Assembly: GCA_030647415.1 (NCBI GenBank)
Contig: JAUSKB010000016.1
Span: 1-59,843, forward strand
Source: a bacterium
GTDB taxonomy: Bacteria > Patescibacteriota > Minisyncoccia > UBA6257 > GWB1-50-10
Direction of reading: 5' to 3'
Length of the DNA: 59,843 nucleotides
The notes below the pieces were generated by a model, which ran no database searches, was not told the DNA's origin, and saw only the letters and a list, made by a program, of their open reading frames with translations. Made by a program: the position numbers and the translations under genes. How positions within the stretch are numbered: the stretch's first letter is position 1; each line of letters begins with the position of its first letter. Of this stretch, positions 13,982-50,519 are shown in pieces.

Positions 13982-13986
13982 GGAAT

Positions 13987-14085: not shown

Positions 14086-14086
14086 A

Positions 14087-15529: not shown

Positions 15530-15534
15530 TCTGA

Positions 15535-15608
15535 GATACTAATATACGAATTCATTCGAATGATACGAATAGTACTAATGCACCCCTATTCGTATCATAT
15601 ATTTTATC
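15535..15608. repeat. palindrome family C, copy C2 (right arm truncated)
   Basis: gatactaatatacgaattcattcgaatgatacgaatagtactaatg ... ctattcgtatcatat. It fills the gap between the lysS start and the greA stop. Confidence 0.8.
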
Positions 15609-18058: not shown

Positions 18059-18169
18059 GTTTACCCTGTTAGAGATTTACATGCACGCCTTTCAAAATAT
18101 ACCTGTTTGTACTAATACCAGCAGGTATACATCCAAAATGATTCTCTGTAAATCTCTAACAGGGTGAAC
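18059..18169. repeat. 107-bp-class TIR element family F4, copy 1
   Basis: Arms gtttaccctgttagagatttaca / tgtaaatctctaacagggtgaac (1 mismatch). It lies 23 nt upstream of the mrdA ATG. Confidence 0.88.
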
Positions 18170-20504: not shown

Positions 20505-20653
20505 AGAGTAATCGCGAATAATGCTAATTATTGCAAATAATGCGAATGAATGCGCACTCCATTCGCATCAGTATACCTGCTATTCGCATTATTCGCGATT
20601 ACTCTTTTCATTCGAATTATTACCTTTGCTATTCGAATTATTCGCGATTACTC
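20505..20653. repeat. 149-bp complex palindrome family C-prime, copy 1
   Basis: Left arm gagtaatcgcgaataatgc. Two alternative right arms: attcgcattattcgcgattactc and attcgaattattcgcgattactc. It overlaps the last codons of proS. Confidence 0.85.
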
Positions 20654-21897: not shown

Positions 21898-22046
21898 GGA
21901 GTAATCGCGAATAATGCTAATTTAACTCAAATAATGCGAATAAATGCGCTCTATTCGCATTATTACCTCTACAATTCGCATTATTAGCGATTACTCTCTT
22001 CATTCGCATTATTATATCTGCAATTCGCATTATTAGCGATTACTCC
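21898..22046. repeat. 149-bp complex palindrome family C-prime, copy 2
   Basis: Same organisation and orientation as 20505-20653, and roughly 80 percent identical by eye. It abuts the proS ATG. Confidence 0.85.
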
Positions 22047-22047
22047 T

Positions 22048-22079
22048 TATAGTACCCAAATTTCCGCATTCGGCAACTT
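22048..22079. repeat. 32-bp direct repeat, left flank of the hicAB cassette
   Basis: tatagtacccaaatttccgcattcggcaactt; matches 22814-22845 at 30/32 positions. Confidence 0.85.
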
Positions 22080-22092
22080 ACCACAAATGGAC

Positions 22093-22338
22093 CTAAAGTT
22101 GCCGCCGGATGTCATCCCATGTCACCCCGCTGTACCGCTCGATTTCCTTGAGCACGTATGAGAGAACCTCCTTCGGGAGCTTCTGCGGTATAGTGACCGA
22201 TTTTTGGGTCGGCGGCCAGGTAGTTTTGTAGTGGCTGCCGTCCCCGCCCCGCTCGTCGATCAAAAACCCAAGACGCCGGAGCGCCTTGATGAGTTTCCTC
22301 CGCTTCAATTCCCCGGGTAATTCGCTATGCGGCGGCAT
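22093..22338 (-). CDS. hicA: HicA/YcfA-like toxin (type II TA)
   Basis: 81 aa from the ATG at 22338: ...KRRKLIKALRRLGFLIDERGGDGSHYKTTW...VTIPQKLPKEVLSYVLKEI. It overlaps the upstream antitoxin ORF by 14 nt. Confidence 0.6.
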   Translation of the reverse strand: MPPHSELPGELKRRKLIKALRRLGFLIDERGGDGSHYKTTWPPTQKSVTIPQKLPKEVLSYVLKEIERYSGVTWDDIRRQL

Positions 22339-22684
22339 ACGCTTCCCCCCGGTCGGTCTCACGGCGAATCGCCGCTTCGGGAGCGTATGCGGACGGCACG
22401 CTGAACGCCGTAAGGATGCCGTCTTTAACACTCCGGTCAAGTTCCTCTGGCGTGCGGCCGTGAGCGACGATGCTGCCGTACGTAAAGTTCGCGCTCACCG
22501 AGACGAGTGTGTCGCCCTCGCGGTGATGTTCGAACCGAATCGGGCCGAAGTTCTTGAAGTACCGGTGCAGGTCGAGCAGACCGCTCGGGACGGTCGAGGT
22601 ACCCAAGATGAACTTCCCAACCCGGTCCTTTGCAACTTTGAAGATGTTCATGGGACTTTTAGATTTATTCTCCTGCCACAGCAT
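22325..22684 (-). CDS. hicB: HicB-like antitoxin (UPF0150-type fold)
   Basis: ...VSANFTYGSIVAHGRTPEELDRSVKDGILTAF resembles the HicB N-domain. It is paired with and overlaps hicA. The start could be 22684 or 22651. Confidence 0.5.
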   Translation of the reverse strand: MLWQENKSKSPMNIFKVAKDRVGKFILGTSTVPSGLLDLHRYFKNFGPIRFEHHREGDTLVSVSANFTYGSIVAHGRTPEELDRSVKDGILTAFSVPSAYAPEAAIRRETDRGEAYAAA

Positions 22685-22698
22685 CCGTCAACACGTTG

Positions 22699-22707
22699 AT
22701 TATACCA
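22699..22707 (-). promoter_or_regulatory. extended -10 box candidate for hicBA
   Basis: The minus strand reads TGGTATAAT about 15 nt upstream of the 22684 ATG. Confidence 0.35.
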
Positions 22708-22758
22708 CATGGTCAGCCGATTTCCTTTCACGCCCATCCACCGCCTACTCACTCGTTA

Positions 22759-22780
22759 TTATCGAAGTCGGACTTCGATA
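22759..22780. repeat. hairpin family H copy 2
   Basis: ttatcgaagtcggacttcgata. With its flanks (ctcgttatt...gattc) it matches 25371-25408. Confidence 0.85.
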
Positions 22781-22813
22781 GATTCAAGAGTTTTGACTGG
22801 CGCATTGCCTCTC

Positions 22814-22845
22814 TATACTACCCAAATTTCCGCGTTCGGCAACTT
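22814..22845. repeat. 32-bp direct repeat, right flank of the hicAB cassette
   Basis: tatactacccaaatttccgcgttcggcaactt. Confidence 0.85.
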
Positions 22846-22953
22846 TCAGGAATCTCCCCGAGTGGGACGAAGTTGGTGATGTGTGCCGGGAAATAGAGAA
22901 GGTTGCCTGAGAATGAAAACACAAAGTCGCCTCATACCGAGGCGACTCCTTAC

Positions 22954-23712
22954 TCACTCTACCCATTCCACATGCTCACCGACAGAGACCCACTTTCTAT
23001 CGGCGCCTTTCTCATAGGAAACAATCCTACCTCCGTAGCCGACTCTGAAGTGAACCTCAACCCTGTCGAACTTCGGGTTGAACACGAAGGTCATCGTCGG
23101 CATCGTCATCAAATGCCAATATCCGCCCCAATGCCCATGGAGAATCGGGAGAAACTTTTTCACGAGCGCCTCGCGCTCGGCGCTCGTGCCTGTGGCCCGT
23201 GAAGGGCGCATGATACCGGGGGAACCGAACTTCGTCGATTTGCTACCGAGAAACCGCTTGAGCAGGGTGTCGTACTTCAAGGTCAGATAGAGGACCCTGA
23301 CCGTGTCTCCAAAGTCGAGCTTCGGCCTGAAGCTTTTGATGACGAACTTCGTGGCTCCATTGCGGTCGTCCCACTTCCCGTTCTCGCTGATGTAGTACAT
23401 GAACGATCCCGGGACCACGACGTTCCGATACCCGTCATTGATCGCACCATCGGAGTTGAACGACACTTTGTCCTTGAGATCGAACGGAGTGAATAATTGC
23501 CGATACAGGCCATAGACCACCCCCGCCGTATCGCTCTCTTTCTTGGTGTCTCTAGGTGCGTATTCTTTTCCCCACCGATCCAGAAATCCCGAGAAATTCC
23601 ACTCGTGATCGCTGGTCGCATAAACTATCTGTTCCAATGATTTCTGGGCCTGCAAGGTTACTGGAAACAGAAGCACAAGCAACACTATAGATATATGAGA
23701 CTTTAACCTCAT
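22954..23712 (-). CDS. secreted hypothetical protein
   Basis: Signal peptide MRLKSHISIVLLVLLFPVTLQAQ, a good SD (aaggaaggag N6 ATG), and lower GC than the surroundings. Confidence 0.6.
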   Translation of the reverse strand: MRLKSHISIVLLVLLFPVTLQAQKSLEQIVYATSDHEWNFSGFLDRWGKEYAPRDTKKESDTAGVVYGLYRQLFTPFDLKDKVSFNSDGAINDGYRNVVVPGSFMYYISENGKWDDRNGATKFVIKSFRPKLDFGDTVRVLYLTLKYDTLLKRFLGSKSTKFGSPGIMRPSRATGTSAEREALVKKFLPILHGHWGGYWHLMTMPTMTFVFNPKFDRVEVHFRVGYGGRIVSYEKGADRKWVSVGEHVEWVE

Positions 23713-23904
23713 AACCGACTCCTTCCTTATTGATTGTGAATACTCTCGAAACTCTGGTTTAGAGATAACACTGATGGCGTTCTCCTGTCAAACCTCGTCG
23801 CTCCCCTTGCTGGACGCGTTGAGCCTCGCCCGTAGGCTACGGCCGAGGGAACGGTGGATTGGCCCCTAGTTAAACAAGAAATGGAGCTTATGCCTATATT
23901 TGTA

Positions 23905-23939
23905 TAAAAAGTTTGAAGCCCTGGGTTCGCCAGGGCTTC
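23905..23939 (-). terminator. rho-independent terminator of 23960..24478
   Basis: Minus strand: gaagccctgg-cgaac-ccagggcttc, then aaacTTTTTat. Confidence 0.6.
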
Positions 23940-23959
23940 GGTTTGCCTCCACCTCCTGT

Positions 23960-24478
23960 CTAAAACTGTTTTTGCAGCTCGATCCACGCTAACTCCCACG
24001 AAGATGATTTGTCCTTCGTCACGTACTCCTCAAGCCGATGACGTTTAGCTTCGTTATTCACAGAAGCTAAAATCCTAAGCCGATGCTCGGCGTCATAATC
24101 ATCTTCCTTTAAACGGAGGGCTTCTTCGCAGATCTCCTTGTTTTCGAGGGTGATGAAGAAGTTGGAGGTGCCGTGATTCGTGAACATCAACCGTGGTATC
24201 CCCATGACGACCGCCTGTGCCAAAAGATCGTATCCATTCCTTTCCAACAGCACCTTGTAGTCATTATCACGCTTAAGGTTCGAATAGCTACCAATGCTGT
24301 CGGTGGAAAGAAACGGCATTGACCGATCAGTCAGGAGGGCGTCCGCCACAGGCAACAGCTCCTGCGCCTCCTTTCTGCTGGTCGCGTACATGAACTCAAA
24401 GCCCTTAACCGTCGAGAAGAAGCTTTTGGCCGCCTGCAGGTTTTCTTTGGTGTCTTCAACTATAAGAATTTTTTTCAT
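23960..24478 (-). CDS. orphan receiver (REC)-like domain protein
   Basis: MKKILIVEDTKENL...ALLTDRSMP resembles a CheY-like acidic pocket and phospho-acceptor Asp. SD gggag N7 ATG. No output domain was recognised. Confidence 0.45.
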   Translation of the reverse strand: MKKILIVEDTKENLQAAKSFFSTVKGFEFMYATSRKEAQELLPVADALLTDRSMPFLSTDSIGSYSNLKRDNDYKVLLERNGYDLLAQAVVMGIPRLMFTNHGTSNFFITLENKEICEEALRLKEDDYDAEHRLRILASVNNEAKRHRLEEYVTKDKSSSWELAWIELQKQF

Positions 24479-24590
24479 TAATTTCTCCCAATATTGGTTT
24501 ATGAATGATTCCTTACTTTTCTATTGAAATTATAGCACTATTGTATGCTTTTTGTCAAATTTATCTGCTCCCCCCAGTTGGACTCAAACC

Positions 24591-24627
24591 CACAGCAATT
24601 TCCCCACATCCTGCACCGTGACGATGG
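24591..24627 (-). pseudogene. relic copy of the rseP 3' end
   Basis: cacagcaatttccccacatcctgcaccgtgacgatgg matches 25421-25457 at 33/37 positions. It would encode ...TIVTVQDVGKLL, compared with rseP ...AIVTVQDVGKLL*. Confidence 0.8.
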
Positions 24628-24643
24628 TACGGCGGCCCCGTGT

Positions 24644-24952
24644 TTACCCTACGAGGCCGACCTGCTTATCAAATACATTCGCAATCTTGTGCAGTGTTGC
24701 GATCGAGAAACTGTGTGTTCCTGACTCAATCCGGGCAATGACCGACTGGGGCATGTCGGCTTTGGCCGCAACCTCCTTTTGGGTCATCTTCCGTTCCTGG
24801 CGCAATGTTTTGATTTCGTGCGCCAATTGTAATCTGCTCATTTCTTCGGAAAATGTTTTGCGAAATCGCTCACTCTTGAGCTTTTCTTTAATAACCGCAT
24901 CGAGAGAAATTGAATTGTATTTTTTGGCGATTTTTTTCATCTTTTTATGCAC
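24644..24952 (-). CDS. higA: XRE-family HTH antitoxin (HigA-like)
   Basis: ...RQERKMTQKEVAAKADMPQSVIARIESGTHSFSIATLHKIANVF, a Cro/C1-type HTH. Located downstream of the toxin gene. Confidence 0.75.
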   Translation of the reverse strand: MHKKMKKIAKKYNSISLDAVIKEKLKSERFRKTFSEEMSRLQLAHEIKTLRQERKMTQKEVAAKADMPQSVIARIESGTHSFSIATLHKIANVFDKQVGLVG

Positions 24953-24963
24953 GCGATAGATAG

Positions 24964-25257
24964 TCAGCGAGTTATGTCTTTATAGATTTTCTCTGCTCGT
25001 TCGATAATTCGCTTGGGTGTTTTCTGGCTCTTTTTCCTGAAGGCATCTACAACATACCCCGTTGATCCCACGAAGAAAAATACGATTCGATACTGTTTCA
25101 CCACCATTTCCCTAATTTTCCCTTTCAGTGGTTTAATAAGCAATCCTTCTGTGCGATTTTCCTGAAGCGACTTAAGGTGAGCAATAATCTTTGCGGTATC
25201 ATCTTCGGGAATCCTTTCGAGAAAATCGGAGGTGTCATCAAGGATCCGTATATTCAT
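24964..25257 (-). CDS. higB: RelE/ParE-superfamily toxin, Gp49/HigB-like
   Basis: ...GKIREMVVKQYRIVFFFVGSTGYVVDAFRKKSQKTPKRIIERAEK, the typical Gp49-like signature. The toxin-first gene order is as in higBA. Confidence 0.75.
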   Translation of the reverse strand: MNIRILDDTSDFLERIPEDDTAKIIAHLKSLQENRTEGLLIKPLKGKIREMVVKQYRIVFFFVGSTGYVVDAFRKKSQKTPKRIIERAEKIYKDITR

Positions 25258-25381
25258 AGCTTGCGCGCGCTATTTTGTCGACCTTTATACACTAACACCA
25301 ACAGTATAGCAATATTGCTATACTTGTAAAGAGGTGTTGTTCCGTCAGTTTTTGTCTCGTGTTTCGTGTCTCGTTATTATA

Positions 25382-25403
25382 TTATCGAAGTCGGACTTCG
25401 ATA
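25382..25403. repeat. hairpin family H copy 3
   Basis: ttatcgaagtcggacttcgata, 17 nt downstream of the rseP stop. Confidence 0.85.
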
Positions 25404-25419
25404 GATTCGATTTCTACTA

Positions 25420-26481
25420 CTACAGCAGTTTCCCCACGTCCTGCACGGTGACGATGGCCATGAGGAGAAGGAGGGCGGCGAACCCGACGCCGTTTATGGC
25501 TATCTGTACTCGGCGCGGGATGGGGCGCCGAATGAGCTTTTCAACAAGCAACACGAGGACCCGGCCGCCGTCCAAGGCCGGAAACGGAATCAGGTTCAGG
25601 ATGACCAGGTTCAGCGAGATGAGGGCGAGGAGCTGGAAAAAGTAGACCGCGCCGAGCTCGCCCGTGCGGACGGCAAAGCTCACAATACCGACCGGCCCGC
25701 TCACCTTCTGGAGCACGCCGGGCTCCGTAAAAACATTTGTGAGGAGGTACCAGAAGCTCGATGCCACCTCCCCGAGCGTCCGGAAGGTCTGGAAGAAGGC
25801 CTCGGCAATCGCCTGGTGAATCGGGAGGGCCGGAAACCCGATGGAGGTGAGCGCAATACCGAGTGAGCCCTCGCCCGGCGGCGGGGTCGCCCGCCCGACG
25901 AGCGTGACGGTGCGCGTCCCGCCCGCACCGGTGAGTTCAAGCGAGAGCGTCTTCCCCGCCGCGGACCTGGCGAGCGCGACGAATGCGTCGGCGTCTATTG
26001 GGTCCGCGAGCGCCGTCTCTCCCCATGTGGCGCGGGCGATGACATCACCCTGCACGATGCGTGCTTCAGCCGCGGGCGAACCGGACGAGACGCCACCCAC
26101 GATGAGATGCTCCGGCGCGCCGGCGGCGAAGACACCCGTCAAAATTACAAATCCGAAGAGGACGTTCATCGCTACACCCGCAAGGAGAATACCGATCCGC
26201 TTCCAGAGTGGTTTCGCTCCAAAGCGCCGTTCCGGCTCATCGCCCACCTCCTCTTCCGACTTCCCAGCCGGCTGTTCCCCGTGGATGCGCACGAACCCGC
26301 CAAACGGCAGGGCGTTCACGCTGTATGTCGTCTCGCCCACCGTCCGGCTCCAGAGCCGCGGCGGGAACCCGATACCAAACTCGTCCACGCGCACTCCGGC
26401 CGCCTTTGCCGCCAAAAAATGGCCCAGCTCATGGACCAGGATGACGAGCGACAAACCGATGATGGATAAAAAAATAATCAT
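25420..26481 (-). CDS. rseP: RIP metalloprotease RseP (site-2 protease, M50)
   Basis: HELGHF zinc motif in the first TM helix, a PDZ-like middle region, and the C-terminal motif LNLIPFPALDGG. Confidence 0.92.
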   Translation of the reverse strand: MIIFLSIIGLSLVILVHELGHFLAAKAAGVRVDEFGIGFPPRLWSRTVGETTYSVNALPFGGFVRIHGEQPAGKSEEEVGDEPERRFGAKPLWKRIGILLAGVAMNVLFGFVILTGVFAAGAPEHLIVGGVSSGSPAAEARIVQGDVIARATWGETALADPIDADAFVALARSAAGKTLSLELTGAGGTRTVTLVGRATPPPGEGSLGIALTSIGFPALPIHQAIAEAFFQTFRTLGEVASSFWYLLTNVFTEPGVLQKVSGPVGIVSFAVRTGELGAVYFFQLLALISLNLVILNLIPFPALDGGRVLVLLVEKLIRRPIPRRVQIAINGVGFAALLLLMAIVTVQDVGKLL

Positions 26482-26482
26482 A

Positions 26483-26572
26483 ATTCCTAATTTCTAATTA
26501 CCAATTTCTAATTACCAATCACAAACCAGAAATCCCCATTGGATATTAGAAATTGGAAATTAGTAATTTTAT
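26483..26572. repeat. spacer-filling imperfect palindrome (ctaat/attag words)
   Basis: ctaatttctaattaccaatttctaattaccaat ... attggatattagaaattggaaattag. The arms are colinear. It fills the gap between the rseP start and the frr stop. Confidence 0.75.
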
Positions 26573-26574
26573 CT

Positions 26575-27123
26575 TTACTCTCTAATCTCCCCTTCCTTCT
26601 TCTCGACCAGCGAGTCAATGAGCTTGTTCGCCGTATCCACCGCCTCCTGGATCTGGTCCTTGAACATGAACTTCCGATCCTCAGGCACCTCGCCATCGGA
26701 GAATCCCTGCTGGACCGACTTATTCGCCTCATCGCGCGCGTGCCGGATCTGGATGCGGTGGTCCTCCGCGAGCCGTTTCGTGTGCTTCACAAGCTCCTCG
26801 CGCCGCTCCTCGGAAAGTTCCGGGAGCCGCACCCGGACGGTAAGCCCATCCGCGGTCGCGCTCACATGGAGTGAGGAGGTTTCGATCGCCTTTATGATGC
26901 CCGGTATCGCTTCTTTATCCCACGCTTGGATGACGATGTCCCGCGGCGGCATGACGCCAACGGAGGCAACCTGCTTCAGGGGCAGGAGCTCCCCGTAGTA
27001 CATGACCCTCAGGTCCTCCACCAGCCCCGGCGAGGGCCGCCCCGTGCGGATTCCGGCAAACTCCTTCGTGAGACTGTCAGTGATGGGCTTCAGTGCGGCT
27101 CGAAAATTTTCGATGCTAAACAT
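26575..27123 (-). CDS. frr: ribosome recycling factor
   Basis: 182 aa; ...EFAGIRTGRPSPGLVEDLRVMYYGELLPLKQVASV... Confidence 0.93.
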   Translation of the reverse strand: MFSIENFRAALKPITDSLTKEFAGIRTGRPSPGLVEDLRVMYYGELLPLKQVASVGVMPPRDIVIQAWDKEAIPGIIKAIETSSLHVSATADGLTVRVRLPELSEERREELVKHTKRLAEDHRIQIRHARDEANKSVQQGFSDGEVPEDRKFMFKDQIQEAVDTANKLIDSLVEKKEGEIRE

Positions 27124-27152
27124 GTGTGTTTATATTACTTCATCCGAGCCCT

Positions 27153-27190
27153 CAAGGCGAAACCTCAGAATTCCCCGAGGTTTCGCCTTG
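27153..27190. repeat. hairpin family B, copy B2 (contains the holB stop codon in its loop)
   Basis: caaggcgaaacctc-agaattcccc-gaggtttcgccttg, a 14-bp perfect stem. Confidence 0.88.
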
Positions 27191-28019
27191 GGAGCCGCCC
27201 CAAACGCTCCCGGATTGCCCGCTCCTGAAGCACCGGATTCACATTGAACCGGCGGACCAGCTCGAGCCGTTCCGCAAGCCACGCAAGTCTGCCCGGCTGG
27301 CCCGCCCGACCGGACGACTGCGGTCGTTCGGGCAGGTACCCCCGAAATCCGTTCGCGTGCGCCTCGACGAGCATCCGCTCGATCTCGGCGCCAGGATCTC
27401 GAGGCGAAACCTCGGAATCTCCTAGAGGTTTCGCCTCCGGCTTCGACAGCTCGAGCGCACAACCGATGCTTCCGAACGACCGCGCGGCGATGCGGGAAGC
27501 TGCCGCGGGTGAACAGCTACGATGCTGAAGTAAAAATCGCTCCACATGAGCCGCAGGTAGCCGCGGCACGTACACGACGGAAAGCCGTGAACGGAGCGGC
27601 GGAGTGAGTAGGTCTGCCTGGCTCGTCACGACAAGGAGCAGCGCATGTGGCGGTGGTTCCTCGACAATCTTCAAGAGCGCGCCCTGCGCCTCGGGGGTGA
27701 GCGCCTCGGCACCGTCGATGACCACAGTCCGGCGCGGAGACCGAAACGGCGTCTGCCAGAGGAACCTACGGATGTCACGGATAGCATCGATACCAATCGT
27801 CCTATTTTCTCCTGGTGCGGTCGTTGTGATATCCATGAGCGCTGCCGCACCGAACTCGAAGCTACCACACTCAAGGTACGCGGCAAACGATGCCGCGAAT
27901 GTTGCCTTCCCGATACCGCGGTCGCCGACAAAACAGTAGGCGTGCGTTAGCGTGCCCTCCCGCGAGAGGCGGGCGAATATCGCAGTAAGTTTATCGTACC
28001 CTACTAGAGTGGATGACAT
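27165..28019 (-). CDS. holB: DNA polymerase III delta-prime subunit (clamp-loader AAA+)
   Basis: HAYCFVGDRGIGKATFA P-loop, VVIDGAEALTPEAQGALLKIVEEPP. The C-terminus runs through two B hairpins. Confidence 0.8.
   Translation of the reverse strand: MSSTLVGYDKLTAIFARLSREGTLTHAYCFVGDRGIGKATFAASFAAYLECGSFEFGAAALMDITTTAPGENRTIGIDAIRDIRRFLWQTPFRSPRRTVVIDGAEALTPEAQGALLKIVEEPPPHALLLVVTSQADLLTPPLRSRLSVVYVPRLPAAHVERFLLQHRSCSPAAASRIAARSFGSIGCALELSKPEAKPLGDSEVSPRDPGAEIERMLVEAHANGFRGYLPERPQSSGRAGQPGRLAWLAERLELVRRFNVNPVLQERAIRERLGRLPRRNLGEF
27400..27436. repeat. hairpin family B, copy B3 (in-frame inside holB)
   Basis: gaggcgaaacctc...gaggtttcgcctc; translated as EAKPLGDSEVSPR. Confidence 0.85.
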
Positions 28020-28020
28020 A

Positions 28021-28150
28021 AAATCCTAAATCCTAATTTCTAAACTCTAAACAAATTCGAAACTCTAAATCTCAAACAATGCGAAGGGCTCTGAATCCGT
28101 TTCGAATTTCGTGCTTGGGATTTGTTTAGAATTTAGGATTTAGTGCTTAG
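28021..28150. repeat. spacer-filling imperfect palindrome (ctaaa/tttag words)
   Basis: aaatcctaaatcctaatttctaaactctaaacaaattcgaaac ... gtttcgaatttcg..gatttgtttagaatttaggattt. It fills the gap between the holB start and the mreB2 stop. Confidence 0.75.
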
Positions 28151-29161: not shown

Positions 29162-29318
29162 GAGTGGAGGAGAGTAATCAGTAATTGGTAAAAGGTAATT
29201 GGAGGCTCAAAACCAACATACGCGAGTTCCTATTACCTATTACTTGCTACTTATTACCTGTTACCAAGTACCTATTTCTATCCACCCCACTTTACCGCCA
29301 TAGCGCCGTTTTCGCAAG

Positions 29319-29697: not shown

Positions 29698-31125
29698 ATG
29701 CCCCTCCGGCTCCGGAAAACCTTCTTCTACCTCTGCCTCGTCGCCTTCCTCGCCGTCGGCGGCTACCTCGTACTCTTCACGCGGGGGCTCGTCTTCGACC
29801 TGCGGCACTTTGAGCTCGTCCCCACGGGCGCGCTCTACCTGAAATTCACCCCGTCCGACGCGACACTCCTCGTGAACGGCAAGGAGCGGCCGGCCGGCGC
29901 CAACATCCTCTCCCCCGGCACATTCGTGGACAACCTCGCGCCCGGCACATACACAGTCACCGTGACCCGTCCGAATTTTTCGACGTGGACAAAGGCGCTC
30001 ACGGTATCTTCGACAATGGTGACCGCCGCAAGCCACATCCGACTCTGGCCCACTCACGCCCCCGCCACACCCGTCGCCATCGATATCGCGAATTTTTGGC
30101 TCACCGGGGAAGGTGCGGTGCTCCAAGATGCCTCGGGGACGTTGCGGCTCGCGCGTCGAACCATTCGCGGCTCCACAGTCGTTGAAAGCGACCAGGGTTC
30201 ATCACGACTCCTGACTGAGGGGCAGGGCCAGTTCTACCTCATGGATCTCTCGGCGCCGGACACCACAACAAATATTTCGGCACTCTTCGTCTCCCTCCGT
30301 AGCAGGACTATTTCACCAGTTGGTCCTGTTGCAACCGGCACACTGGTACGGTCGGGTTCGACTACCTCAACAAACTTATTGCAAGCAAGCTCGCCGCAAG
30401 CCGAACACGTCCGCGCCGTCCTCCTGCATCCCTTCAGCGGACAGAAGCTTATTGTCGGCACCGATGCTGGCCTCTACGAGCTCGACACAAAAAAGGTTTC
30501 ACTCGAACGGCTCGCGAGCGTGGACCGATTCACCGCGCTCGCAAAGAGCGGCGGTGATGCGTTTATTATGAACGGTTCGAGCACGATGACAGTGGTGAAT
30601 CTTATCCTCCATACCAGCGTCACCTACGCGTTCCCGCTTTCTTCCGGGCTTCGGTCGCTCATCGCTTCGCCAAACGGGAGCTACCTCGCGGCGATTTCCG
30701 ATACCGGCGTCCTGTCGGTGCTGGACCGGACCGCCGGGACATTCACGCCCGTCGCGCACAACGTCGTAACTGCTACCATCGCCCCGGATAACACAGCGCT
30801 CATCTTTCTCTCAACCGACGGGCGCTTGAACCTGTACTACCTCTCGGACGTCGCCGGGGACGAGCTTTTCACTGCGGGGCAGCTCACGGCGAGCGCCGGC
30901 CCGCTGCCGGTGCCGCCGGCGGGAACGCTCACCGCGCTTCCAAGTTTCTCCGGAACGGTGCTGGTACAAGCCAGCGGCACGTTGCTTGCCGCGGAGACCG
31001 ACCTCCGCGGACAGGTCAACAGCACCGCCCTCGCCGCGCACGTCCGTTCGTTTGCGATTCGCGACACCACCCTCTACCTGCTCTCGACCGACGGTACCTT
31101 GAGCTCCATGAACCTCGCGCCGTGA
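29698..31125 (+). CDS. membrane-anchored PEGA-domain / beta-propeller-like protein
   Basis: N-terminal TM helix (FFYLCLVAFLAVGGYLVLF), a PEGA-like segment (ATLLVNGKERPAG...LAPGTYTVTVTRPNFSTW), and repetitive beta-rich sequence downstream. Confidence 0.6.
   Translation: MPLRLRKTFFYLCLVAFLAVGGYLVLFTRGLVFDLRHFELVPTGALYLKFTPSDATLLVNGKERPAGANILSPGTFVDNLAPGTYTVTVTRPNFSTWTKALTVSSTMVTAASHIRLWPTHAPATPVAIDIANFWLTGEGAVLQDASGTLRLARRTIRGSTVVESDQGSSRLLTEGQGQFYLMDLSAPDTTTNISALFVSLRSRTISPVGPVATGTLVRSGSTTSTNLLQASSPQAEHVRAVLLHPFSGQKLIVGTDAGLYELDTKKVSLERLASVDRFTALAKSGGDAFIMNGSSTMTVVNLILHTSVTYAFPLSSGLRSLIASPNGSYLAAISDTGVLSVLDRTAGTFTPVAHNVVTATIAPDNTALIFLSTDGRLNLYYLSDVAGDELFTAGQLTASAGPLPVPPAGTLTALPSFSGTVLVQASGTLLAAETDLRGQVNSTALAAHVRSFAIRDTTLYLLSTDGTLSSMNLAP
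31023..31125. repeat. 103-bp direct repeat, copy 1 (functional 3' end of 29698..31125)
   Basis: caccgccctcgccgcgcacgtccgttcgtttgcgattcgcgacaccaccctctacctgctctcgaccgacggtaccttgag... recurs at 31838-31940. Confidence 0.9.
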
Positions 31126-31151
31126 GCTACGGCCGGGGTACCCATGCATCT

Positions 31152-31745
31152 ATGAAAAACTATCAGAATATAAAAGCGATTGCATTTGATTTCTGGGACG
31201 TCTTTGCAACTATGAATCCCCCCATGAACCATTACCTGGAAGAACGTGGCGTCTCAATTAAAAAATACTTAGACAAAATTCACAATCTTATCGTATCCCA
31301 CGACCTTGGAAAGATAGACGAAAAGCAGTTCCTTCAGGCATGCTCTCGAATAGTGGGGGTGGAAATCCCGTACGACCAGTGCCGGTACATATACCGAGAT
31401 GGGACCTTGAACGCGCCGCTAATTGAGATTATAAAAAAACTGAAGGCGAGATATAAAATCGCGCTTCTCTCGAATAATAATAGAGAATATGTCCAAGAGC
31501 ACATTTACAAGCCCGGCTTGGATAAACTTTTCGACGTAATGGTCGTTTCCTACGAAGCGGGCTACCAAAAACCTGCCCCTGAAATATACAAAAGCCTCAT
31601 TCAGAAGCTGCAAGTAGAACCAAGCGAGATACTGTTTCTTGATGACGACACAGGAAAGTTAGGAGCGGCAGAGGTGCAAGGAATCCAAACGCTTGCTTAC
31701 AAAGGAGAGGAAACAGATAAAATCCTGGAACACTTTTCTAGTTAG
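31152..31745 (+). CDS. HAD-superfamily hydrolase
   Basis: Motif I AFDFWDVF, motif II LLSNNN, motif IV FLDDDTGKLGAAE. Low GC relative to neighbours. Confidence 0.7.
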   Translation: MKNYQNIKAIAFDFWDVFATMNPPMNHYLEERGVSIKKYLDKIHNLIVSHDLGKIDEKQFLQACSRIVGVEIPYDQCRYIYRDGTLNAPLIEIIKKLKARYKIALLSNNNREYVQEHIYKPGLDKLFDVMVVSYEAGYQKPAPEIYKSLIQKLQVEPSEILFLDDDTGKLGAAEVQGIQTLAYKGEETDKILEHFSS

Positions 31746-31837: not shown

Positions 31838-31940
31838 CACCGCCCTCGCCGCGCACGTCCGTTCGTTTGCGGTTCGCGACACCACCCTCTACCTGCTCTC
31901 GACCGACGGTACCTTGAGTTCCCTGGATCTCTCGCCGTAG
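31838..31940 (+). pseudogene. 103-bp direct repeat, copy 2 (orphaned 3' end of 29698..31125)
   Basis: Near-identical over the first approximately 80 bp, diverging in the last approximately 20 bp. It ends in its own in-frame stop (tag at 31938-31940). Confidence 0.85.
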
Positions 31941-32229
31941 ATACGAGCTTGAGCGTCAAAGGGGGGTTATAAAGGAAGCGAGTTGAAAAAACTTGCGTTT
32001 TCTTTATATTTATGTTTCCATGAAAACAGTTAAAATCCCATTCACAAAATAGGAGAGGAAGTTGGAAGAAACCATTGGGCGTGTCTCTGGACTCATCGTA
32101 GTCCTGAGCGTCGTGCCCTATGCCATTCGGACATGGCAAGGGAAGGTACACCCGAACCCCACAAGCTGGTTCCTCTGGACTCTCATAGGGTTCGTGCTTC
32201 TTGTTACCTACCGTGACTCCGGCGCAACG

Positions 32230-36214: not shown

Positions 36215-36319
36215 CCCGTTAGAAATTTAAACATATTCGTTGATTTTTTGTATACGACTGTTTTTTGGAAACATGATTTTATTGATTCACCAATCCCGCG
36301 TAAATTTCTAACGGGATGA
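36211..36319. repeat. TIR element family F4, copy 2
   Basis: Perfect 19-bp arms tcatcccgttagaaattta / taaatttctaacgggatga. The rpoA ATG (36212-36214) lies inside the left arm. Confidence 0.9.
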
Positions 36320-36321
36320 AT

Positions 36322-36513: not shown

Positions 36514-36514
36514 C

Positions 36515-38161: not shown

Positions 38162-38163
38162 AA

Positions 38164-38490: not shown

Positions 38491-38502
38491 ATGGAACCCT
38501 TT

Positions 38503-40611: not shown

Positions 40612-40612
40612 T

Positions 40613-40717: not shown

Positions 40718-40734
40718 GACCCTTCTGTTTTGTA

Positions 40735-48506: not shown

Positions 48507-49928
48507 TTATTCTTCTCCCGTCTCCACCTTGATGGAGAGTTCGTGAAGCTGAGTAAGCGTTGCCTCCGAAGGTGCGTCCATCACCGCAATCTGGCCGCTC
48601 GAGGTCGCCGGAAAGGCCATCACCTCGCGGATACTCGATTCTCCCAGGAGCACCATCATGAGCCGGTCGATGCCTGGCGCGATGCCGCCGTGGGGCGGGA
48701 CGCCGTGGCGGAACGCCGTAAGCATGTGGTCGAACTGCGCTTTTTGTGTCGCGTTGAAGCCGATGAGGTCAAATACTTTCTCCTGCACCTCCGGGCGGTG
48801 GATACGGATGCTTCCCCCGCCGACCTCGTAGCCGTTCAGGACCATGTCGTGCTGGAGGCCGCGGACCTTCGTGGGATCGGTATCGAGAAGTGGTACGTCG
48901 TCGGGGTGCGGCGCCGTGAACATGTGGTGCGACGGGGCGAACTTCGCCGCCCCCGAGCCATGAAAGAAATCCTCCTTCGACTGCTCGGTGAAGAGCGGAA
49001 AATCAATGGTCCAGGAAAATGCGAGCTCGTTCGGGTCTTTTTTGTCCTTCCGAAGGTCCGGTTTGTCCGTACCGTACGTCGCTACCGCCTCCGTATGGGA
49101 GAGCCGCGGCCACGGCTTCTTCGTGATGTGCTTCTCGGGGAAGATGGATTCGGCGAGCTTCGTGAACAGGTCTTCGGCGAGCCGGAGAATATCCTCCTGC
49201 GTCACGAACGACATCTCGAGGTCGAGCTGGGTGAACTCCCCGTACGCCCGGTCCGCGCGTGGGTCCTCGTCGCGGAAACAGCGCGCAATCTGGAAGTACC
49301 GCTCGAATCCCGCAACCATGAGGAGCTGTTTGTACTGCTGGGGCGACTGTGGGAGGGCATAAAACTTGCCGGGCTGGAGGCGGGAGGGCACGAGGAAATC
49401 GCGCGCGCCCTCGGGTGTGGTCTTCGTAAGAATGGGCGTCTCTATCTCGGTGAATCCCTCGTTCGAGAGATACTCCCGGATGAACCGGACCGCCGCATGC
49501 CGAAGCTTCAGGTTTTTCTGCATCCGCGGCCGGCGGAGGTCAAGGTAGCGGTACTTGAGGCGAAGCTGCTCGTCCACATCGTGGCCGTCGGTGTCGAGCG
49601 GGAAGGGCGGGGTTTTCGCCTCATTCAAAACCTCGATCGCGGTGACCGAAACCTCGTACGCGCCGTTCGGGAGATTCGGATTCTCCATGCCCGCCGGGCG
49701 TTTCTTCACCATACCGGTGAGCCGCACCACCCACTCGCTCCGGAGCGTCTGGCCCACCTCATGCGCCGCGACCTCCTTGGGCGTGAAGACAACCTGCGCG
49801 ATGCCGCTTCGGTCCCGGAGGTCTATAAAAACAAGCTTCCCGTGGTCGCGCCGGACATCCACCCATCCCTCGAGCGTGACCTGCTCGCTCTCATGGGCGC
49901 CGATGTCCTTTGTGAGGGTTCGTTTCAT
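48507..49928 (-). CDS. aspS: aspartyl-tRNA synthetase (short, no GAD insertion)
   Basis: OB domain (VTLEGWVDVRRDHGKLVFIDLRDRSG) and class II motifs (FRDEDPRADRAYGEFTQLDLEMSF; GGIAPGIDRL). The likely start is MKRTLTKD at 49928. Confidence 0.93.
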   Translation of the reverse strand: MKRTLTKDIGAHESEQVTLEGWVDVRRDHGKLVFIDLRDRSGIAQVVFTPKEVAAHEVGQTLRSEWVVRLTGMVKKRPAGMENPNLPNGAYEVSVTAIEVLNEAKTPPFPLDTDGHDVDEQLRLKYRYLDLRRPRMQKNLKLRHAAVRFIREYLSNEGFTEIETPILTKTTPEGARDFLVPSRLQPGKFYALPQSPQQYKQLLMVAGFERYFQIARCFRDEDPRADRAYGEFTQLDLEMSFVTQEDILRLAEDLFTKLAESIFPEKHITKKPWPRLSHTEAVATYGTDKPDLRKDKKDPNELAFSWTIDFPLFTEQSKEDFFHGSGAAKFAPSHHMFTAPHPDDVPLLDTDPTKVRGLQHDMVLNGYEVGGGSIRIHRPEVQEKVFDLIGFNATQKAQFDHMLTAFRHGVPPHGGIAPGIDRLMMVLLGESSIREVMAFPATSSGQIAVMDAPSEATLTQLHELSIKVETGEE

Positions 49929-50046: not shown

Positions 50047-50283
50047 TCATCTTTGTAAAATCTCGACTTCCGGATACCTTGCGGGATCGAATCCGCGGAG
50101 CTTGATCTCCTTGAGGATTAAATCATTCACAAAAGAAGTGAAACTGTTATTTTTCGTCTTAAGGTTCTGCTGGCTAACAAAAATTTTCACATATTGCGAC
50201 AGGTTCTTAGGGAGAAAAATGGTGGTCCTTTTCTTCTCTCCATACAACATGAACACTTCCGCTTCCGGTCTGCCCCTTTTCAT
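50047..50283 (-). CDS. small ribbon-helix-helix-like protein (cassette gene)
   Basis: The ATG at 50281-50283 is preceded by GGAGG. MKRGRPEAEVFMLYGEKKRTTIFLPKNLSQYVKIF... has a beta-strand then helices, typical of CopG/RHH. Low GC. Confidence 0.45.
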   Translation of the reverse strand: MKRGRPEAEVFMLYGEKKRTTIFLPKNLSQYVKIFVSQQNLKTKNNSFTSFVNDLILKEIKLRGFDPARYPEVEILQR

Positions 50284-50420
50284 ATTTTCCTCCATTGTTA
50301 ATGTCCCATTGAAAAATGTATTTTATTGTTATCACTCTTTTATTCTCGTGTCAACCATGTTTTATTACAACATATTCGAATTTACAGAGGCGAAGCCTCT
50401 GTGTGCAAGCCTCTGTGTGC

Positions 50421-50519
50421 AACGAGTTTGCCGTGGTCGCGGCGGACATCCACCCAGCCCTCGAGCGTTATGGTCTGACCTTCGTGCGCGGTGATGTCTT
50501 TCGCGAGGGTGCGTTCCAT
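50421..50519 (-). pseudogene. orphan copy of the aspS 5' end
   Basis: Encodes MERTLAKDITAHEGQTITLEGWVDVRRDHGKLV, compared with aspS MKRTLTKDIGAHESEQVTLEGWVDVRRDHGKLV. The 89-bp DNA match is 50431-50519 against 49840-49928. Confidence 0.85.

What the first reader, a model, noticed from the sequence alone, without database searches (positions are those of the whole stretch)
24591..25457. higBA cassette flanked by a duplicated rseP 3' end
A 37-bp copy of the rseP terminus (24591-24627, 33/37 identical to 25421-25457) still encodes TIVTVQDVGKLL. It lies just beyond higA, so the higB-higA pair plus an H hairpin sits between the real rseP end and its relic.

The mismatches look like allelic divergence and not random decay. 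This suggests the cassette arrived with a donor copy of the gene end.
Basis: partly seen in the sequence, partly recalled or inferred. Interest (0 to 1): 0.68.

Follow-up and report, generated by a model that had tools for sequence, protein, structure and literature searches.

The report
Gene-end relic beside inserted toxin–antitoxin cassette
In an uncultured Patescibacteria genome, a small toxin–antitoxin gene pair sits at the end of a housekeeping protease gene between the gene's working last 12 codons and a second, left-over copy of them; this is one of at least four such insertions in 60 kb and shows how these tiny bacteria pick up accessory genes.

Summary
Window 24591-24627 matches the rseP 3' end (25421-25457) at 33/37 bases. 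No shuffle gave such a match, and an independent Logan assembly of SRR13727527 has the same sequence. A higB/higA pair with its own promoter, plus the 21-nt H palindrome, lies between the two copies.

It is not a one-off. The window holds three more cassettes with the same layout: a hicA-type pair at the proS 5' end, a HAD hydrolase at the 3' end of a PEGA-like gene, and an 82-aa ORF at the aspS 5' end. Syntenic relatives (L172, L176) have 47 nt between rseP and proS, against 3.5 kb here. Other Patescibacteria (L016, L167, L168) show the same kind of relic.

Over seven relic pairs I counted 28 synonymous and 13 non-synonymous codon differences, two stop-to-stop changes and no new in-frame stops. 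The two copies therefore look like alleles from different lineages, not an in-place duplication that decayed. The rseP pair alone is too short to show this.

Best explanation: the cassette was captured from a diverged relative by homology-anchored recombination, one-ended or by single crossover of a circle, displacing the resident gene end. The closest known parallel is "insertion with long target duplication" of restriction-modification genes. This is a moderately interesting new variant of a known kind.

The parts
25420..26481 (-). rseP-like site-2 protease gene (353 aa), intact
   Evidence: Peptidase_M50, E = 2e-57. Homologues at 76-88% identity end in the same ...VTVQDVGKLL*.
25421..25457 (-). 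working copy of the duplicated rseP 3' end (last 12 codons and part of the stop codon)
25380..25408 (-). H unit: the 21-nt palindrome TATCGAAGTCCGACTTCGATA (25383-25403) with conserved flanks, 17 nt after the rseP stop
   Evidence: The 29 nt are identical to 22757-22785. The window has 3 copies against 0 expected. The same palindrome lies about 60 nt after rseP in the relative L164. It folds as a 9-bp stem of -9.4 kcal/mol with no U-run.
25303..25330 (-). the cassette's own promoter-like site (TTTACA-16-TATACT), overlapping the palindrome AGTATAGCAATATTGCTATACT, a probable HigA operator
   Evidence: The same promoter and palindrome precede the higB homologue in L167.
24964..25257 (-). higB-type toxin gene (97 aa)
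   Evidence: PF05973 Gp49/HigB-like, E = 5.5e-14. There are 41 homologues of 52-78% identity, nearly all of 93-110 aa; two from Liptonbacteria MAGs are named RelE/ParE family toxins by NCBI.
24644..24952 (-). higA-type antitoxin gene (102 aa, Xre-type HTH), 11 nt after higB
   Evidence: HTH_3, E = 4e-16. Homologous loci have the same toxin-then-HTH order.
24584..24627 (-). relic of the rseP 3' end: the 37-nt copy at 24591-24627, whose frame continues TGG GTT TGA to a stop at 24584-24586
24529..24558 (-). consensus promoter (TTGACA-18-TATAAT) of the next gene (172 aa, weak receiver-domain match), left intact just beyond the relic
22786..22845 (-). parallel case: relic of the proS promoter (22809-22845) and of the first 6 proS codons (ATGCGCCAGTCAAAACTC, from 22805), abutting a second H unit
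   Evidence: It is colinear with the proS promoter and start of L172 and L176.
22093..22785 (-). parallel case: second H unit (22757-22785), then a 119-aa gene (22325-22684) and a hicA toxin gene (81 aa from the ATG at 22338 by my reading, and as called in L162; the listed ORF starts at the TTG at 22440)
   Evidence: HicA_toxin, E = 5e-9. The 119-aa partner has no Pfam hit. Sequence; gene calls.
22043..22079 (-). parallel case: working copy of the proS promoter. A 146-nt palindromic element (21899-22046) then separates it from the proS ATG at 21897.
31023..31131 (+). parallel case: working 3' end of the 475-aa PEGA-like gene (29698-31125)
31152..31745 (+). parallel case: HAD-family hydrolase cassette; GC 0.44 over its ORF against 0.62 for the neighbouring gene
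   Evidence: Hydrolase/HAD_2, E = 5e-17. GC.
31838..31945 (+). parallel case: relic of the PEGA-like gene's 3' end. It is 109 nt at 93% identity, stays in frame, and has TAG where the gene has TGA.
49830..49928 (-). parallel case: working 5' end of aspS (first 33 codons)
50047..50295 (-). parallel case: 82-aa ORF cassette; low GC (0.44 for an ORF spanning the insert), with a promoter and terminator hairpin identified by eye; no family hit
50421..50519 (-). parallel case: relic of the aspS 5' end. It has an ATG and 33 codons in frame, 77% nucleotide and 79% amino-acid identity to the gene, and lies just downstream of comEC.

Best explanation
The higBA pair is a self-contained accessory cassette. 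It entered the genome physically linked to a foreign allele of the rseP 3' end and recombined with the resident rseP through that homology.

Two routes give the same product. In the first, a linear fragment pairs in rseP on one side, and its far end, 16 nt past higA, is joined illegitimately 37 nt before the resident stop codon. This is homology-facilitated illegitimate recombination, also called 'displacement'. In the second, a circle carrying gene end plus cassette integrates by a single crossover.

Either way rseP keeps an intact end, the cassette follows it, and the other copy of the last 12 codons is pushed downstream as a dead relic. The same process acted at least three more times in this window, at the proS 5' end, the PEGA-like gene's 3' end and the aspS 5' end. 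It also acted in other Patescibacteria.

Shown:
- the anatomy of the locus
- the empty site in relatives
- the recurrence of the layout
- the selection-shaped pattern of differences between copies
- a ComEC competence gene in the window

Inferred:
- the recombination route
- the direction (which copy is the donor's)
- DNA uptake by natural transformation
For: 1. The duplication is real and significant, and it is reproduced in an independent assembly.

2. The cassette is an autonomous unit. It has a HigB/Gp49 toxin, an HTH_3 antitoxin and its own promoter with a palindrome. That promoter and palindrome are conserved in the homologous cassette of L167. GC is 0.39-0.44 in the windows over the cassette against 0.60-0.70 over rseP.

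3. Relatives show the empty site. rseP and proS are adjacent on the same strand in 121 of 163 Patescibacteria loci, with spacers of 0-2632 nt. The syntenic relatives L172 and L176 have exactly 47 nt between them. The window has 3.5 kb.

4. Four cassettes in the window share the layout 'gene end, cassette, second copy of gene end' at four unrelated targets. More cases occur in L016 (two rseP-end relics), L167 (three repeat copies separating cassettes) and L168 (a 5' relic of a peptidase gene).

5. Differences between the copies are shaped by selection: 28 synonymous and 13 non-synonymous codons. They include multi-step synonymous changes (CGC/AGG, CTC/TTA) and stop-to-stop changes (TGA/TAG, TAG/TAA), with no new in-frame stops. 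p = 2e-4 against an in-place duplication model, and 0 of 5000 neutral simulations reached the observed value.

6. The proS relic keeps the states seen in the outgroups L172 and L176 where the working copy differs: TAGTAT in the -10 box, ATGCGC at the start, and no 146-nt element. This fits a resident relic and an incoming working copy.

7. No integrase or other site-specific recombinase was found in the cassettes or among the roughly 45 window ORFs scanned. The only transposase is an unrelated IS at 32230-33311.

8. ComEC (Competence and Lactamase_B domains) is encoded at 50644-53098. Patescibacteria are reported to be naturally competent through comEC and pili (PMC12455944).

9. One-ended recombination has been proposed for the analogous displaced 3' ends at T6SS and Rhs loci (PMC5361080).
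Against: - No donor-type or recipient-type genome was found, so no junction can be checked for microhomology. The nearest RseP relatives are 88% and 76% identical, on short contigs.
- For the rseP pair itself, comparison with relatives does not say which copy is ancestral. The informative sites are split. Identity to L164 and L163 along rseP shows no breakpoint.
- The duplicated segments are short, 29-109 nt, and the rseP pair now has no identical run longer than 10 nt. RecA-type recombination on so little homology is inefficient, so a circle with only this much homology would integrate rarely.
- The cassettes are compact, ending 13-125 nt from their genes. Both toxin-antitoxin cassettes begin with the same 29-nt H unit. 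This hints at discrete cassette ends and perhaps a dedicated enzyme, not random fragment ends.
- The 0.40 expectation in the codon test is a rough figure of mine, and the seven pairs were found by eye and by BLAST, not by a blind genome-wide scan.
Confidence: 0.55

Rival explanations
1. In-place 'insertion with long target duplication'. The cassette was inserted at a widely staggered break or by template switching, so both copies of the 37 nt come from the resident genome. They have diverged since then, the working copy under selection and the relic neutrally.
For: This matches the pattern described for restriction-modification genes. Those are inserts flanked by direct repeats longer than 30 bp, of variable length and unique to the site, with no mobility gene. 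They occur mostly in naturally competent species, and one 46-bp repeat overlaps the 3' end of a gene (PMC2853133). Some pairs here are nearly identical: L016 relic 1 at 49/51, L057 at 30/30, L145 at 41/42. The rseP pair alone cannot reject this model.
Against: The pooled codon pattern rejects a neutral relic: 28 synonymous against 13 non-synonymous, two stop-to-stop changes, multi-step synonymous codon changes and no new stops. The aspS relic is 23% diverged at the nucleotide level yet still an open 33-codon frame with 79% amino-acid identity. The proS relic is closer to the outgroups than the working copy is, the opposite of what a decaying relic should show.
Confidence: 0.2
2. Site-specific or structure-specific recombination. 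The gene end, or the H palindrome next to it, is an attachment site. The cassette is a minimal or decayed integrative element moved by an enzyme encoded elsewhere, such as a tyrosine recombinase or a Y1/HUH transposase acting on REP-like hairpins. The element supplies a replacement gene end, as islands in gene ends do.
For: - Integrases that target gene ends are well known; a family of integrases inserts islands and prophages within the 5' end of dusA (PMC4482086, abstract seen).
- The rseP end was used repeatedly in another genome: L016 has two relics, with the inner boundary at about the same codon.
- Both toxin-antitoxin cassettes start with the identical 29-nt H unit. H also follows rseP in L164, ahead of a different cassette set.
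- In L057 two identical hairpins with the same 13-nt core (GAAGTCCGACTTC) flank an IS200-like Y1 transposase gene in the rseP-proS spacer.
- In L057, L068, L095 and L145 the flanking repeats are hairpin-containing sequences.
Against: - Neither the cassettes nor the ORFs scanned in the 60-kb window encode a recombinase or Y1 transposase.
- The four window targets share no sequence, and the HAD and aspS cassettes have no H, so a single sequence-specific enzyme does not fit.
- IS200/IS605-type and REP-type mobility makes no long target duplication (my background knowledge).
- H was not found in IMG/VR viral contigs, and higB has no close viral relatives.
Confidence: 0.2
3. Assembly chimera. Two strains that differ downstream of rseP were joined by the assembler, producing a false second copy of the gene end.
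For: The source is a metagenome. The two Logan contigs break inside higB (24979-25003), which could reflect strain variation.
Against: An independent Logan contig runs without a break from hicA through the relic into higB (window 21913-25003, 100% identical). A second contig covers higB to beyond rseP. The two copies share no exact run longer than 10 nt, too short to join contigs. The same layout recurs at three other loci and in unrelated assemblies.
Confidence: 0.03

Closest known systems
'Insertion with long target duplication' of restriction-modification gene complexes (Furuta, Abe and Kobayashi 2010, PMC2853133; first described for Helicobacter pylori in that paper's reference 37)
   Same: A small addiction-type gene unit is inserted with no mobility gene. 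It is flanked by direct repeats of local host sequence longer than 30 bp, of variable length and unique to each site. Related genomes carry a single copy at the empty site. A repeat can overlap the 3' end of the neighbouring gene. Most cases are in naturally competent bacteria.
   Different: The cargo here is type II toxin-antitoxin pairs, a HAD hydrolase and a small ORF, not restriction-modification genes. The host is a Patescibacterium. Four events lie within 30 kb. The two repeat copies look like different alleles shaped by selection, which a literal duplication of the target does not predict.
Displacement of gene 3' ends at polymorphic-toxin loci (T6SS effector-immunity arrays, Rhs and CDI 'orphan' modules), proposed to arise by homology-facilitated illegitimate recombination (Kirchberger et al. 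2017, PMC5361080)
   Same: An incoming module linked to a conserved stretch of the upstream gene recombines through that stretch. The old end is shifted downstream, and successive events build arrays. L016, with two successive rseP-end relics, looks like such an array.
   Different: At those loci the displaced piece is the variable toxin end with its immunity gene, and the process diversifies the toxin. Here the displaced piece is a conserved housekeeping gene end of only 12-34 codons, or a gene start of 6-33 codons, and the cargo is unrelated to the target gene.
Integrase-borne islands and prophages that insert into the 5' or 3' end of a protein gene and carry a replacement end (for example dusA-specific integrases, PMC4482086)
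   Same: The gene stays intact because the element supplies a new end. A partial second copy of the gene end marks the far junction.
   Different: No integrase is present. The inserts are 0.5-0.8 kb. The targets differ from one cassette to the next.
Type II toxin-antitoxin system HigB/HigA (toxin first, Xre-HTH antitoxin second)
   Same: Gene order, sizes and domains match (PF05973 toxin, HTH_3 antitoxin), and a palindrome overlaps the promoter.
   Different: Activity has not been tested. The nearest homologues are all from uncultured Patescibacteria.
REP elements with RAYT / IS200-like Y1 transposases (as a reading of the H hairpin only)
   Same: H is a perfect palindrome present in several intergenic copies. 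It is identical between copies and between strains. Its 13-nt core also occurs in two hairpins flanking a Y1_Tnp gene in L057.
   Different: There are only three copies in 60 kb. No Y1 transposase gene is in the window. A link between H and cassette movement has not been shown.

Membership tests
Type II toxin-antitoxin, HigB/HigA type | Toxin of the RelE/ParE superfamily, HigB/Gp49 family | tested here: met
   PF05973, E = 5.5e-14, 52.4 bits against a cut-off of 23.9, covering residues 11-93 of 97
Type II toxin-antitoxin, HigB/HigA type | Xre-type HTH antitoxin gene immediately downstream of the toxin gene (reversed order relative to most type II systems) | tested here: met
   HTH_3, E = 4e-16. 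higA starts 11 nt after the higB stop. Five homologous loci show the same order.
Type II toxin-antitoxin, HigB/HigA type | Own promoter with a palindromic operator for autoregulation | tested here: inconclusive
   A promoter-like site (TTTACA-16-TATACT) overlaps a 22-nt palindrome, and both are conserved in L167. Binding was not tested.
Type II toxin-antitoxin, HigB/HigA type | Toxin arrests growth and the antitoxin neutralises it | not testable with these tools
   Requires expression experiments.
Insertion with long target duplication (PMC2853133) | Insert flanked by direct repeats of host sequence longer than 30 bp | tested here: met
   37 nt at 33/37 identity. Other window cases are 37 nt (plus 18 nt of coding sequence), 109 nt and 99 nt.
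Insertion with long target duplication (PMC2853133) | A related genome has one copy of the repeat at an uninterrupted site | tested here: met
   L172 and L176 have a single rseP end, then 47 nt, then proS. These relatives are distant (59% RseP identity); no strain-level empty site was found.
Insertion with long target duplication (PMC2853133) | No transposase or integrase in the insert | tested here: met
   The insert holds only higB and higA. No recombinase was found among the other window ORFs scanned.
Insertion with long target duplication (PMC2853133) | Both repeat copies derive from the recipient's own target (a true duplication) | tested here: not met
   The pooled codon pattern of seven pairs points to two alleles kept by selection. 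For the rseP pair alone the test has no power.
Homology-facilitated illegitimate recombination / displacement | Displaced resident fragment lies directly beyond the incoming segment, and the target gene is left intact | tested here: met
Homology-facilitated illegitimate recombination / displacement | DNA-uptake machinery present | tested here: met
   ComEC, with a Competence domain (E = 6e-45) and Lactamase_B, at 50644-53098. A prepilin-type N_methyl protein lies at 7435-8367.
Homology-facilitated illegitimate recombination / displacement | Microhomology at the illegitimate junction; a donor with the cassette next to the same gene | not testable with these tools
   No donor genome was found.
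Integrase-mediated island in a gene end | Site-specific recombinase gene inside or next to the element | tested here: not met
   None in the insert or among the window ORFs scanned.
Integrase-mediated island in a gene end | The same target site is used recurrently in other genomes | tested here: inconclusive
   1 of 152 other rseP loci (L016) has rseP-end relics, two of them. Most inserts in the rseP-proS spacer have other or no repeats.
Integron gene cassette | attC site with its conserved core sites, next to an intI/attI platform | tested here: not met
   No integrase was found in the window ORFs scanned. H is a 21-nt perfect palindrome upstream of the genes and, by my reading, lacks the attC core motif. 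The cassettes have their own promoters.
REP / RAYT (for the H hairpin) | Palindrome repeated in intergenic regions | tested here: met
   3 copies against 0 expected, all intergenic.
REP / RAYT (for the H hairpin) | Cognate Y1 (RAYT / IS200-like) transposase in the genome, flanked by the same palindromes | tested here: inconclusive
   None in the window, and the rest of the genome was not available. In L057 a Y1_Tnp gene is flanked by hairpins with the same 13-nt core.

The most novel reading that the evidence does not exclude
Patescibacteria of this lineage have a dedicated cassette-capture system that needs no integrase. Small self-expressed cassettes (toxin-antitoxin pairs and others), some marked by a REP-like H hairpin, are moved as discrete units. 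The mover would be a trans-acting Y1/HUH enzyme or competence-coupled recombination. The cassettes are slotted into the ends of essential genes and carry a spare gene end, so the target survives. Junctions such as rseP-proS would then act as integron-like accretion platforms, and the relics would be a readable record of past donors.
Probability: 0.12. Interest if true: 0.8.

Novelty: new variant of a known kind. Interest (0 to 1): 0.55.

Why it matters
Patescibacteria have very small genomes and few recognisable mobile elements, so how they gain accessory and defence genes is poorly understood. This window shows a repeated, readable signature of gain. Each cassette sits at the end of a core gene between a working copy and a displaced copy of that end, and the two copies look like alleles from different lineages. 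If this holds more widely:

- It gives a simple way to find recent gene gains in these genomes.
- It shows which core-gene junctions are hot spots; the rseP-proS spacer ranges from 0 to 3.5 kb across the phylum.
- It allows donors to be inferred from relic sequences.
- It extends 'insertion with long target duplication', so far described for restriction-modification genes, to toxin-antitoxin pairs, and suggests that at least some such 'duplications' are donor-plus-recipient pairs made by one-ended recombination.

Tried and rejected
- **Strain-level comparison.** Scans of GTDB species genomes and JGI metagenomes with RseP gave nothing above 46% identity. Exact-protein look-ups returned only the same strain (L001, L162) and short contigs of relatives (L163, L164). 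No donor-type or recipient-type genome was found.
- **Mosaic test.** Sliding identity of rseP against L164 and L163 shows no breakpoint.
- **Relic against relatives' alleles.** Informative sites are split for rseP. The relic's extra 'W-V-stop' resembles the '...KLWG*' end of L172 and L176, but only weakly. I treat it as a hint.
- **Donor search for the aspS relic.** An 80-aa chimeric query returned only short N-terminal AspRS fragments of at most 66% identity, which was not informative.
- **H hairpin as a known RNA.** Rfam gave no hit over the window at gathering thresholds, or over 21800-25600 at E up to 1.
- **H as an intrinsic terminator.** The stem is weak (-9.4 kcal/mol, z = -0.9) and has no U-run.
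- **H or higB on viruses.** There were no matches in IMG/VR.
- **Defence-system models.** PADLOC gave only generic HTH hits for higA.
- **Flanking repeats at other higBA homologues.** L165/L166 and L168/L169 have none directly around the pair; L171 could not be tested because its flank is too short; L167 has them.
- **Repeats judged to be something else.** The 66-nt repeat around rpsD and the roughly 150-nt repeat around proS are intergenic elements repeated in successive spacers, not gene-end relics. The holB internal repeat (27151-27188 / 27398-27436) was not pursued.
Full report
**1. The observation**

The stretch 24591-24627 matches 25421-25457 at 33 of 37 positions. The repeat finder lists the pair as 36 nt at 92% identity, 830 nt apart. 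With up to three mismatches the 36-mer occurs only at these two places, and none of 100 shuffles gave a match. A sensitive self-comparison of the window scores it at E = 9e-7.

The right-hand copy is the end of a 353-aa Peptidase_M50 gene on the minus strand (25420-26481), an rseP-type site-2 protease. In that frame both copies read IVTVQDVGKLL. The three differences within those codons are synonymous. The fourth is TAG in the gene against TGG in the relic, whose frame then runs GTT TGA.

Two Logan contigs from run SRR13727527 are 100% identical to window 21913-25003 and 24979-28050. An independent assembly therefore reproduces the relic and its surroundings.

**2. What lies between the copies**

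Reading along the minus strand, in the direction of rseP, the order is as follows.

| Feature | Window position | Evidence |
|---|---|---|
| rseP stop codon | 25420-25422 | |
| 17-nt spacer | 25404-25420 | |
| H palindrome TATCGAAGTCCGACTTCGATA | 25383-25403 | |
| Promoter-like site TTTACA-16-TATACT, overlapping the palindrome AGTATAGCAATATTGCTATACT | 25303-25330 | |
| higB (97 aa, PF05973 Gp49/HigB family) | 24964-25257 | |
| higA (102 aa, HTH_3) | 24644-24952 | |
| 16-nt spacer | 24628-24643 | |
| rseP-end relic | 24591-24627 | |
| Consensus promoter TTGACA-18-TATAAT of the next gene | 24529-24558 | |

- GC is 0.39-0.44 in the windows over the insert and 0.60-0.70 over rseP.
- HigB has 41 homologues of 52-78% identity. 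Those that carry a source name come from Patescibacteria. In the loci examined each is followed by an HTH gene, in different neighbourhoods.
- The promoter and palindrome are conserved in the L167 homologue.
- The insert is therefore a self-expressed higBA-type cassette.

**3. The organism and the empty site**

- RseP relatives are all Patescibacteria of the Paceibacteria / Jorgensenbacteria type. Species-level genomes reach only 46% identity.
- The closest relatives with long contigs are L172 (GCA_964562255.1) and L176, at 59% RseP identity.
- Both share the window's gene order: rpsK-rpsD-rpoA-rplQ-rplM-rpsI, a convergent PEGA-like gene, then mreB-holB-frr-rseP-proS-mreB-mreC-...-PBP2-greA.
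- In both, rseP is followed by proS after 47 nt.
- Across 163 fetched loci, proS follows rseP on the same strand in 121, with spacers of 0-2632 nt.
- In the window the spacer is 3.5 kb. It holds higBA, the relic, a 172-aa gene, a 252-aa gene and a second toxin-antitoxin cassette.

**4. The same layout recurs in the window**

| Target gene end | Cassette | Working copy | Relic | Identity | Evidence |
|---|---|---|---|---|---|
| rseP 3' | higB-higA, preceded by H | 25421-25457 | 24591-24627 | 33/37 | |
| proS 5' (promoter and start) | 119-aa gene and hicA, preceded by H | 22043-22079, ATG at 21897 | 22786-22845 | promoter 89%; MRQSKL kept | |
| PEGA-like gene 3' | HAD hydrolase (31152-31745) | 31023-31131 | 31838-31945 | 93% over 109 nt | |
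| aspS 5' | 82-aa ORF (50047-50295) | 49830-49928 | 50421-50519 | 77% over 99 nt | |

- **proS case.**
  - The relic promoter is followed by ATGCGCCAGTCAAAACTC (MRQSKL), where proS itself starts ATGAGGCAGTCAAAATTA. This relic start abuts the second H unit directly.
  - The proS relic is colinear with the proS promoter and start of L172 and L176. It shares their TAGTAT -10 box and ATGCG start.
  - The working copy has TACTAT and AGG, and a 146-nt palindromic element between the promoter and the ATG.
- **PEGA-like case.** The relic stays in frame, with four conservative replacements and TAG where the gene has TGA. In L172 the corresponding convergent spacer is 76 nt.
- **aspS case.** The relic is an ATG and 33 in-frame codons just downstream of comEC, with 79% amino-acid identity to the gene. 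I identified promoter-like sequences by eye upstream of both the relic and the cassette ORF.

**5. The same layout in other genomes**

- I scanned 152 other rseP loci for a second copy of each locus's own rseP end. One clear case emerged, L016. It has relics at 7408-7458 (49/51) and 7649-7686, then proS. The second relic differs from the gene by synonymous changes only (GTC/ATC at the homology boundary aside) and has TAA where the gene has TAG.
- L167, a higBA homologue locus, has three copies of a repeat that separate successive cassettes.
- L168 and L169 have a relic of the first 18 codons of a peptidase S51 gene: five synonymous differences and one replacement. With the gene's real start, it flanks a 230-aa gene.
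- In L057, L068, L095 and L145, inserts in the rseP-proS spacer are flanked by repeated hairpin-containing sequences.

**6. Are the copies alleles or a decayed duplication?**

For seven pairs I counted codon differences inside the homologous stretch.

| Measure | Count |
|---|---|
| Synonymous codon differences | 28 |
| Non-synonymous codon differences | 13 |
| Stop-to-stop changes | 2 |
| Stops lost | 1 |
| New in-frame stops | 0 |

- If the relic had decayed neutrally from an in-place duplicate while the gene changed only synonymously, I estimate about 40% of differing codons should be synonymous. The observed 68% gives p = 2e-4.
- In 5000 simulations of neutral decay, none reached 28 synonymous codons, and only 21% avoided a new stop.
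- Multi-step changes that keep the meaning (CGC/AGG, CTC/TTA, TGA/TAG) are hard to obtain without selection on both copies.
- I conclude that the two copies spent most of their divergence as working gene ends in different lineages.
- The rseP pair alone, with three synonymous changes, does not reach significance.

**7. Mechanism**

A cassette that arrives joined to a foreign allele of the gene end, and recombines through it, gives exactly this product. Two routes are possible.

- **One-ended recombination.** Homologous pairing occurs in the gene, and the far end of the fragment joins illegitimately inside the resident copy.
  - This has been proposed for displaced toxin ends at T6SS and Rhs loci (PMC5361080).
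  - It explains the variable relic lengths.
  - It also explains why homology stops at the start or stop codon on the outer side.
- **Single crossover of a circle** carrying gene end plus cassette. This gives the same product and explains why every case has a duplication.

Natural transformation is plausible. comEC is in the window, and Patescibacteria are considered competent (PMC12455944). I could not tell the two routes apart, and for rseP I could not say which copy is the donor's. For proS, the outgroup comparison favours a resident relic and an incoming working copy.

**8. Rivals**

- **A true long target duplication**, as described for restriction-modification genes (PMC2853133), fits the anatomy but not the codon pattern.
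- **A site-specific or hairpin-specific recombinase** is suggested by several points.
  - The identical H unit starts both toxin-antitoxin cassettes.
  - H follows rseP in L164, ahead of a different cassette set that includes an AbiEii-type toxin-antitoxin pair.
  - The H core GAAGTCCGACTTC occurs in two hairpins flanking an IS200-like Y1 transposase gene in L057.
  - Against it, no recombinase or Y1 transposase is encoded in the cassettes or among the window ORFs scanned.
  - Also against it, the four targets share no sequence, and two cassettes lack H.
- **An assembly chimera** is excluded by the independent contigs.

**9. Comparison with what is known**

- The closest described phenomenon is 'insertion with long target duplication'. 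The closest proposed mechanism is homology-facilitated illegitimate recombination, or displacement.
- The points that differ are:
  - toxin-antitoxin and other small cassettes in place of restriction-modification genes
  - housekeeping gene ends and starts as targets
  - a Patescibacteria host
  - the density of events
  - the evidence that the flanking copies are two alleles
- I rate it a new variant of a known kind, of moderate interest.

Noticed in passing
window 36453-36518 and 37249-37314: A 66-nt direct repeat (95% identical) begins exactly at the stop codons of rpsK and of rpsD, so rpsD is bracketed by it. The rpsD-rpoA spacer is 300 nt here against 38 nt in the relative L172. No Rfam family matches. 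It could be a repeated terminator or regulatory element, or a trace of rpsD replacement.
   Followed up: partly
window 20506-20654 and 21899-22046; related elements at 13984-14089, 15532-15598, 38162-38276 and 43616-43720: Palindromic intergenic elements of about 100-150 nt, built from 9-nt 'AATAATGCGAAT' or 'ATGATACGAAT'-type units, look like MITEs. One pair brackets proS. The copy at 21899-22046 sits between the proS promoter and the ATG and is absent from the relic promoter and from L172 and L176.
   Followed up: partly
window 5837-5911, 16446-16520, 40217-40291: A GC-rich stretch of 58-75 nt (91-97% identical over the shared 58-65 nt) lies inside three unrelated coding genes: grpE, the PBP2-like gene and a 570-aa gene. 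It is read in two different frames (LQPSLDSTSRRGGRG in two genes, SSPASTRRLGEAGEA in the third). That marks it as a DNA-level repeat tolerated within proteins, not a protein motif. Unexplained.
   Followed up: partly
window 32230-33311: An insertion sequence with perfect 25-nt inverted ends and a 323-aa Mutator/IS256-like transposase with an N-terminal zinc ribbon. It lies next to the HAD cassette and its relic. A sequence resembling its end also occurs downstream of rseP in the relative L164, near position 1075.
   Followed up: partly
window 11032-11052: A third copy of the H palindrome, in the opposite orientation, lies about 24 nt after the stop of the gene at 11076-11972 (which I read as ftsQ-like, not checked against a family library). 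A short tandem duplication of its left arm (CAAATTATCGAAG twice) sits next to it. No cassette is evident beside it.
   Followed up: partly
L057 4171-4934: In another Paceibacterium the rseP-proS spacer holds an IS200-like Y1 transposase gene that exactly fills the space between two identical 30-nt hairpins (AAATAAAAGAAGTCCGACTTCTTTTATTTT). Their 13-nt core equals the core of the window's H hairpin. Y1 transposase homologues also occur in L055, L094 and L088.
   Followed up: partly
window 26468-26575, 29180-29284, 6437-6531, 38812-38892, 57881-57925 and others: Arrays of a 14-nt periodic 'TTACC/TTACT' motif form inverted pairs in several intergenic regions upstream of genes, for example between rseP and frr. 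They may be promoter-associated or protein-binding arrays.
   Followed up: no
window 8235-8346, 18059-18169, 36210-36323, 38383-38494, 40611-40759, 42075-42185: A family of intergenic inverted pairs is built on TTTACCCTGTTAGAGTTTTACA and its reverse complement (GTAAAACTCTAACAGGGTAAA). The arms are about 25-30 nt and lie roughly 80 nt apart. Function unknown.
   Followed up: no
window 24979-25003 (overlap of Logan contigs L001 and L162): The two independent Logan contigs from SRR13727527 both end inside higB and overlap by only 25 nt, although nothing in the window repeats this stretch. A branch in the assembly graph here could mean strain variation within the cassette in that sample.
   Followed up: no
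L164 1086-1798: The closest RseP relative (88% identity) carries different cargo after rseP and H: a short ORF (1086-1295) whose C-terminal half resembles, by eye, the end of a DNA methyltransferase (no Pfam hit), then a DUF6922 gene and an AbiEii-type toxin gene. The same site therefore holds different toxin-antitoxin cargo in a sister lineage.
   Followed up: partly
proteins P0163-P0282: The search with an AspRS N-terminal query returned only short ORFs of 53-140 aa carrying the OB-fold N-terminus. Several are on contigs of 20-160 kb and are named 'partial' by NCBI. Some may be 5' relics of aspS like the one at 50421-50519.
   Followed up: no
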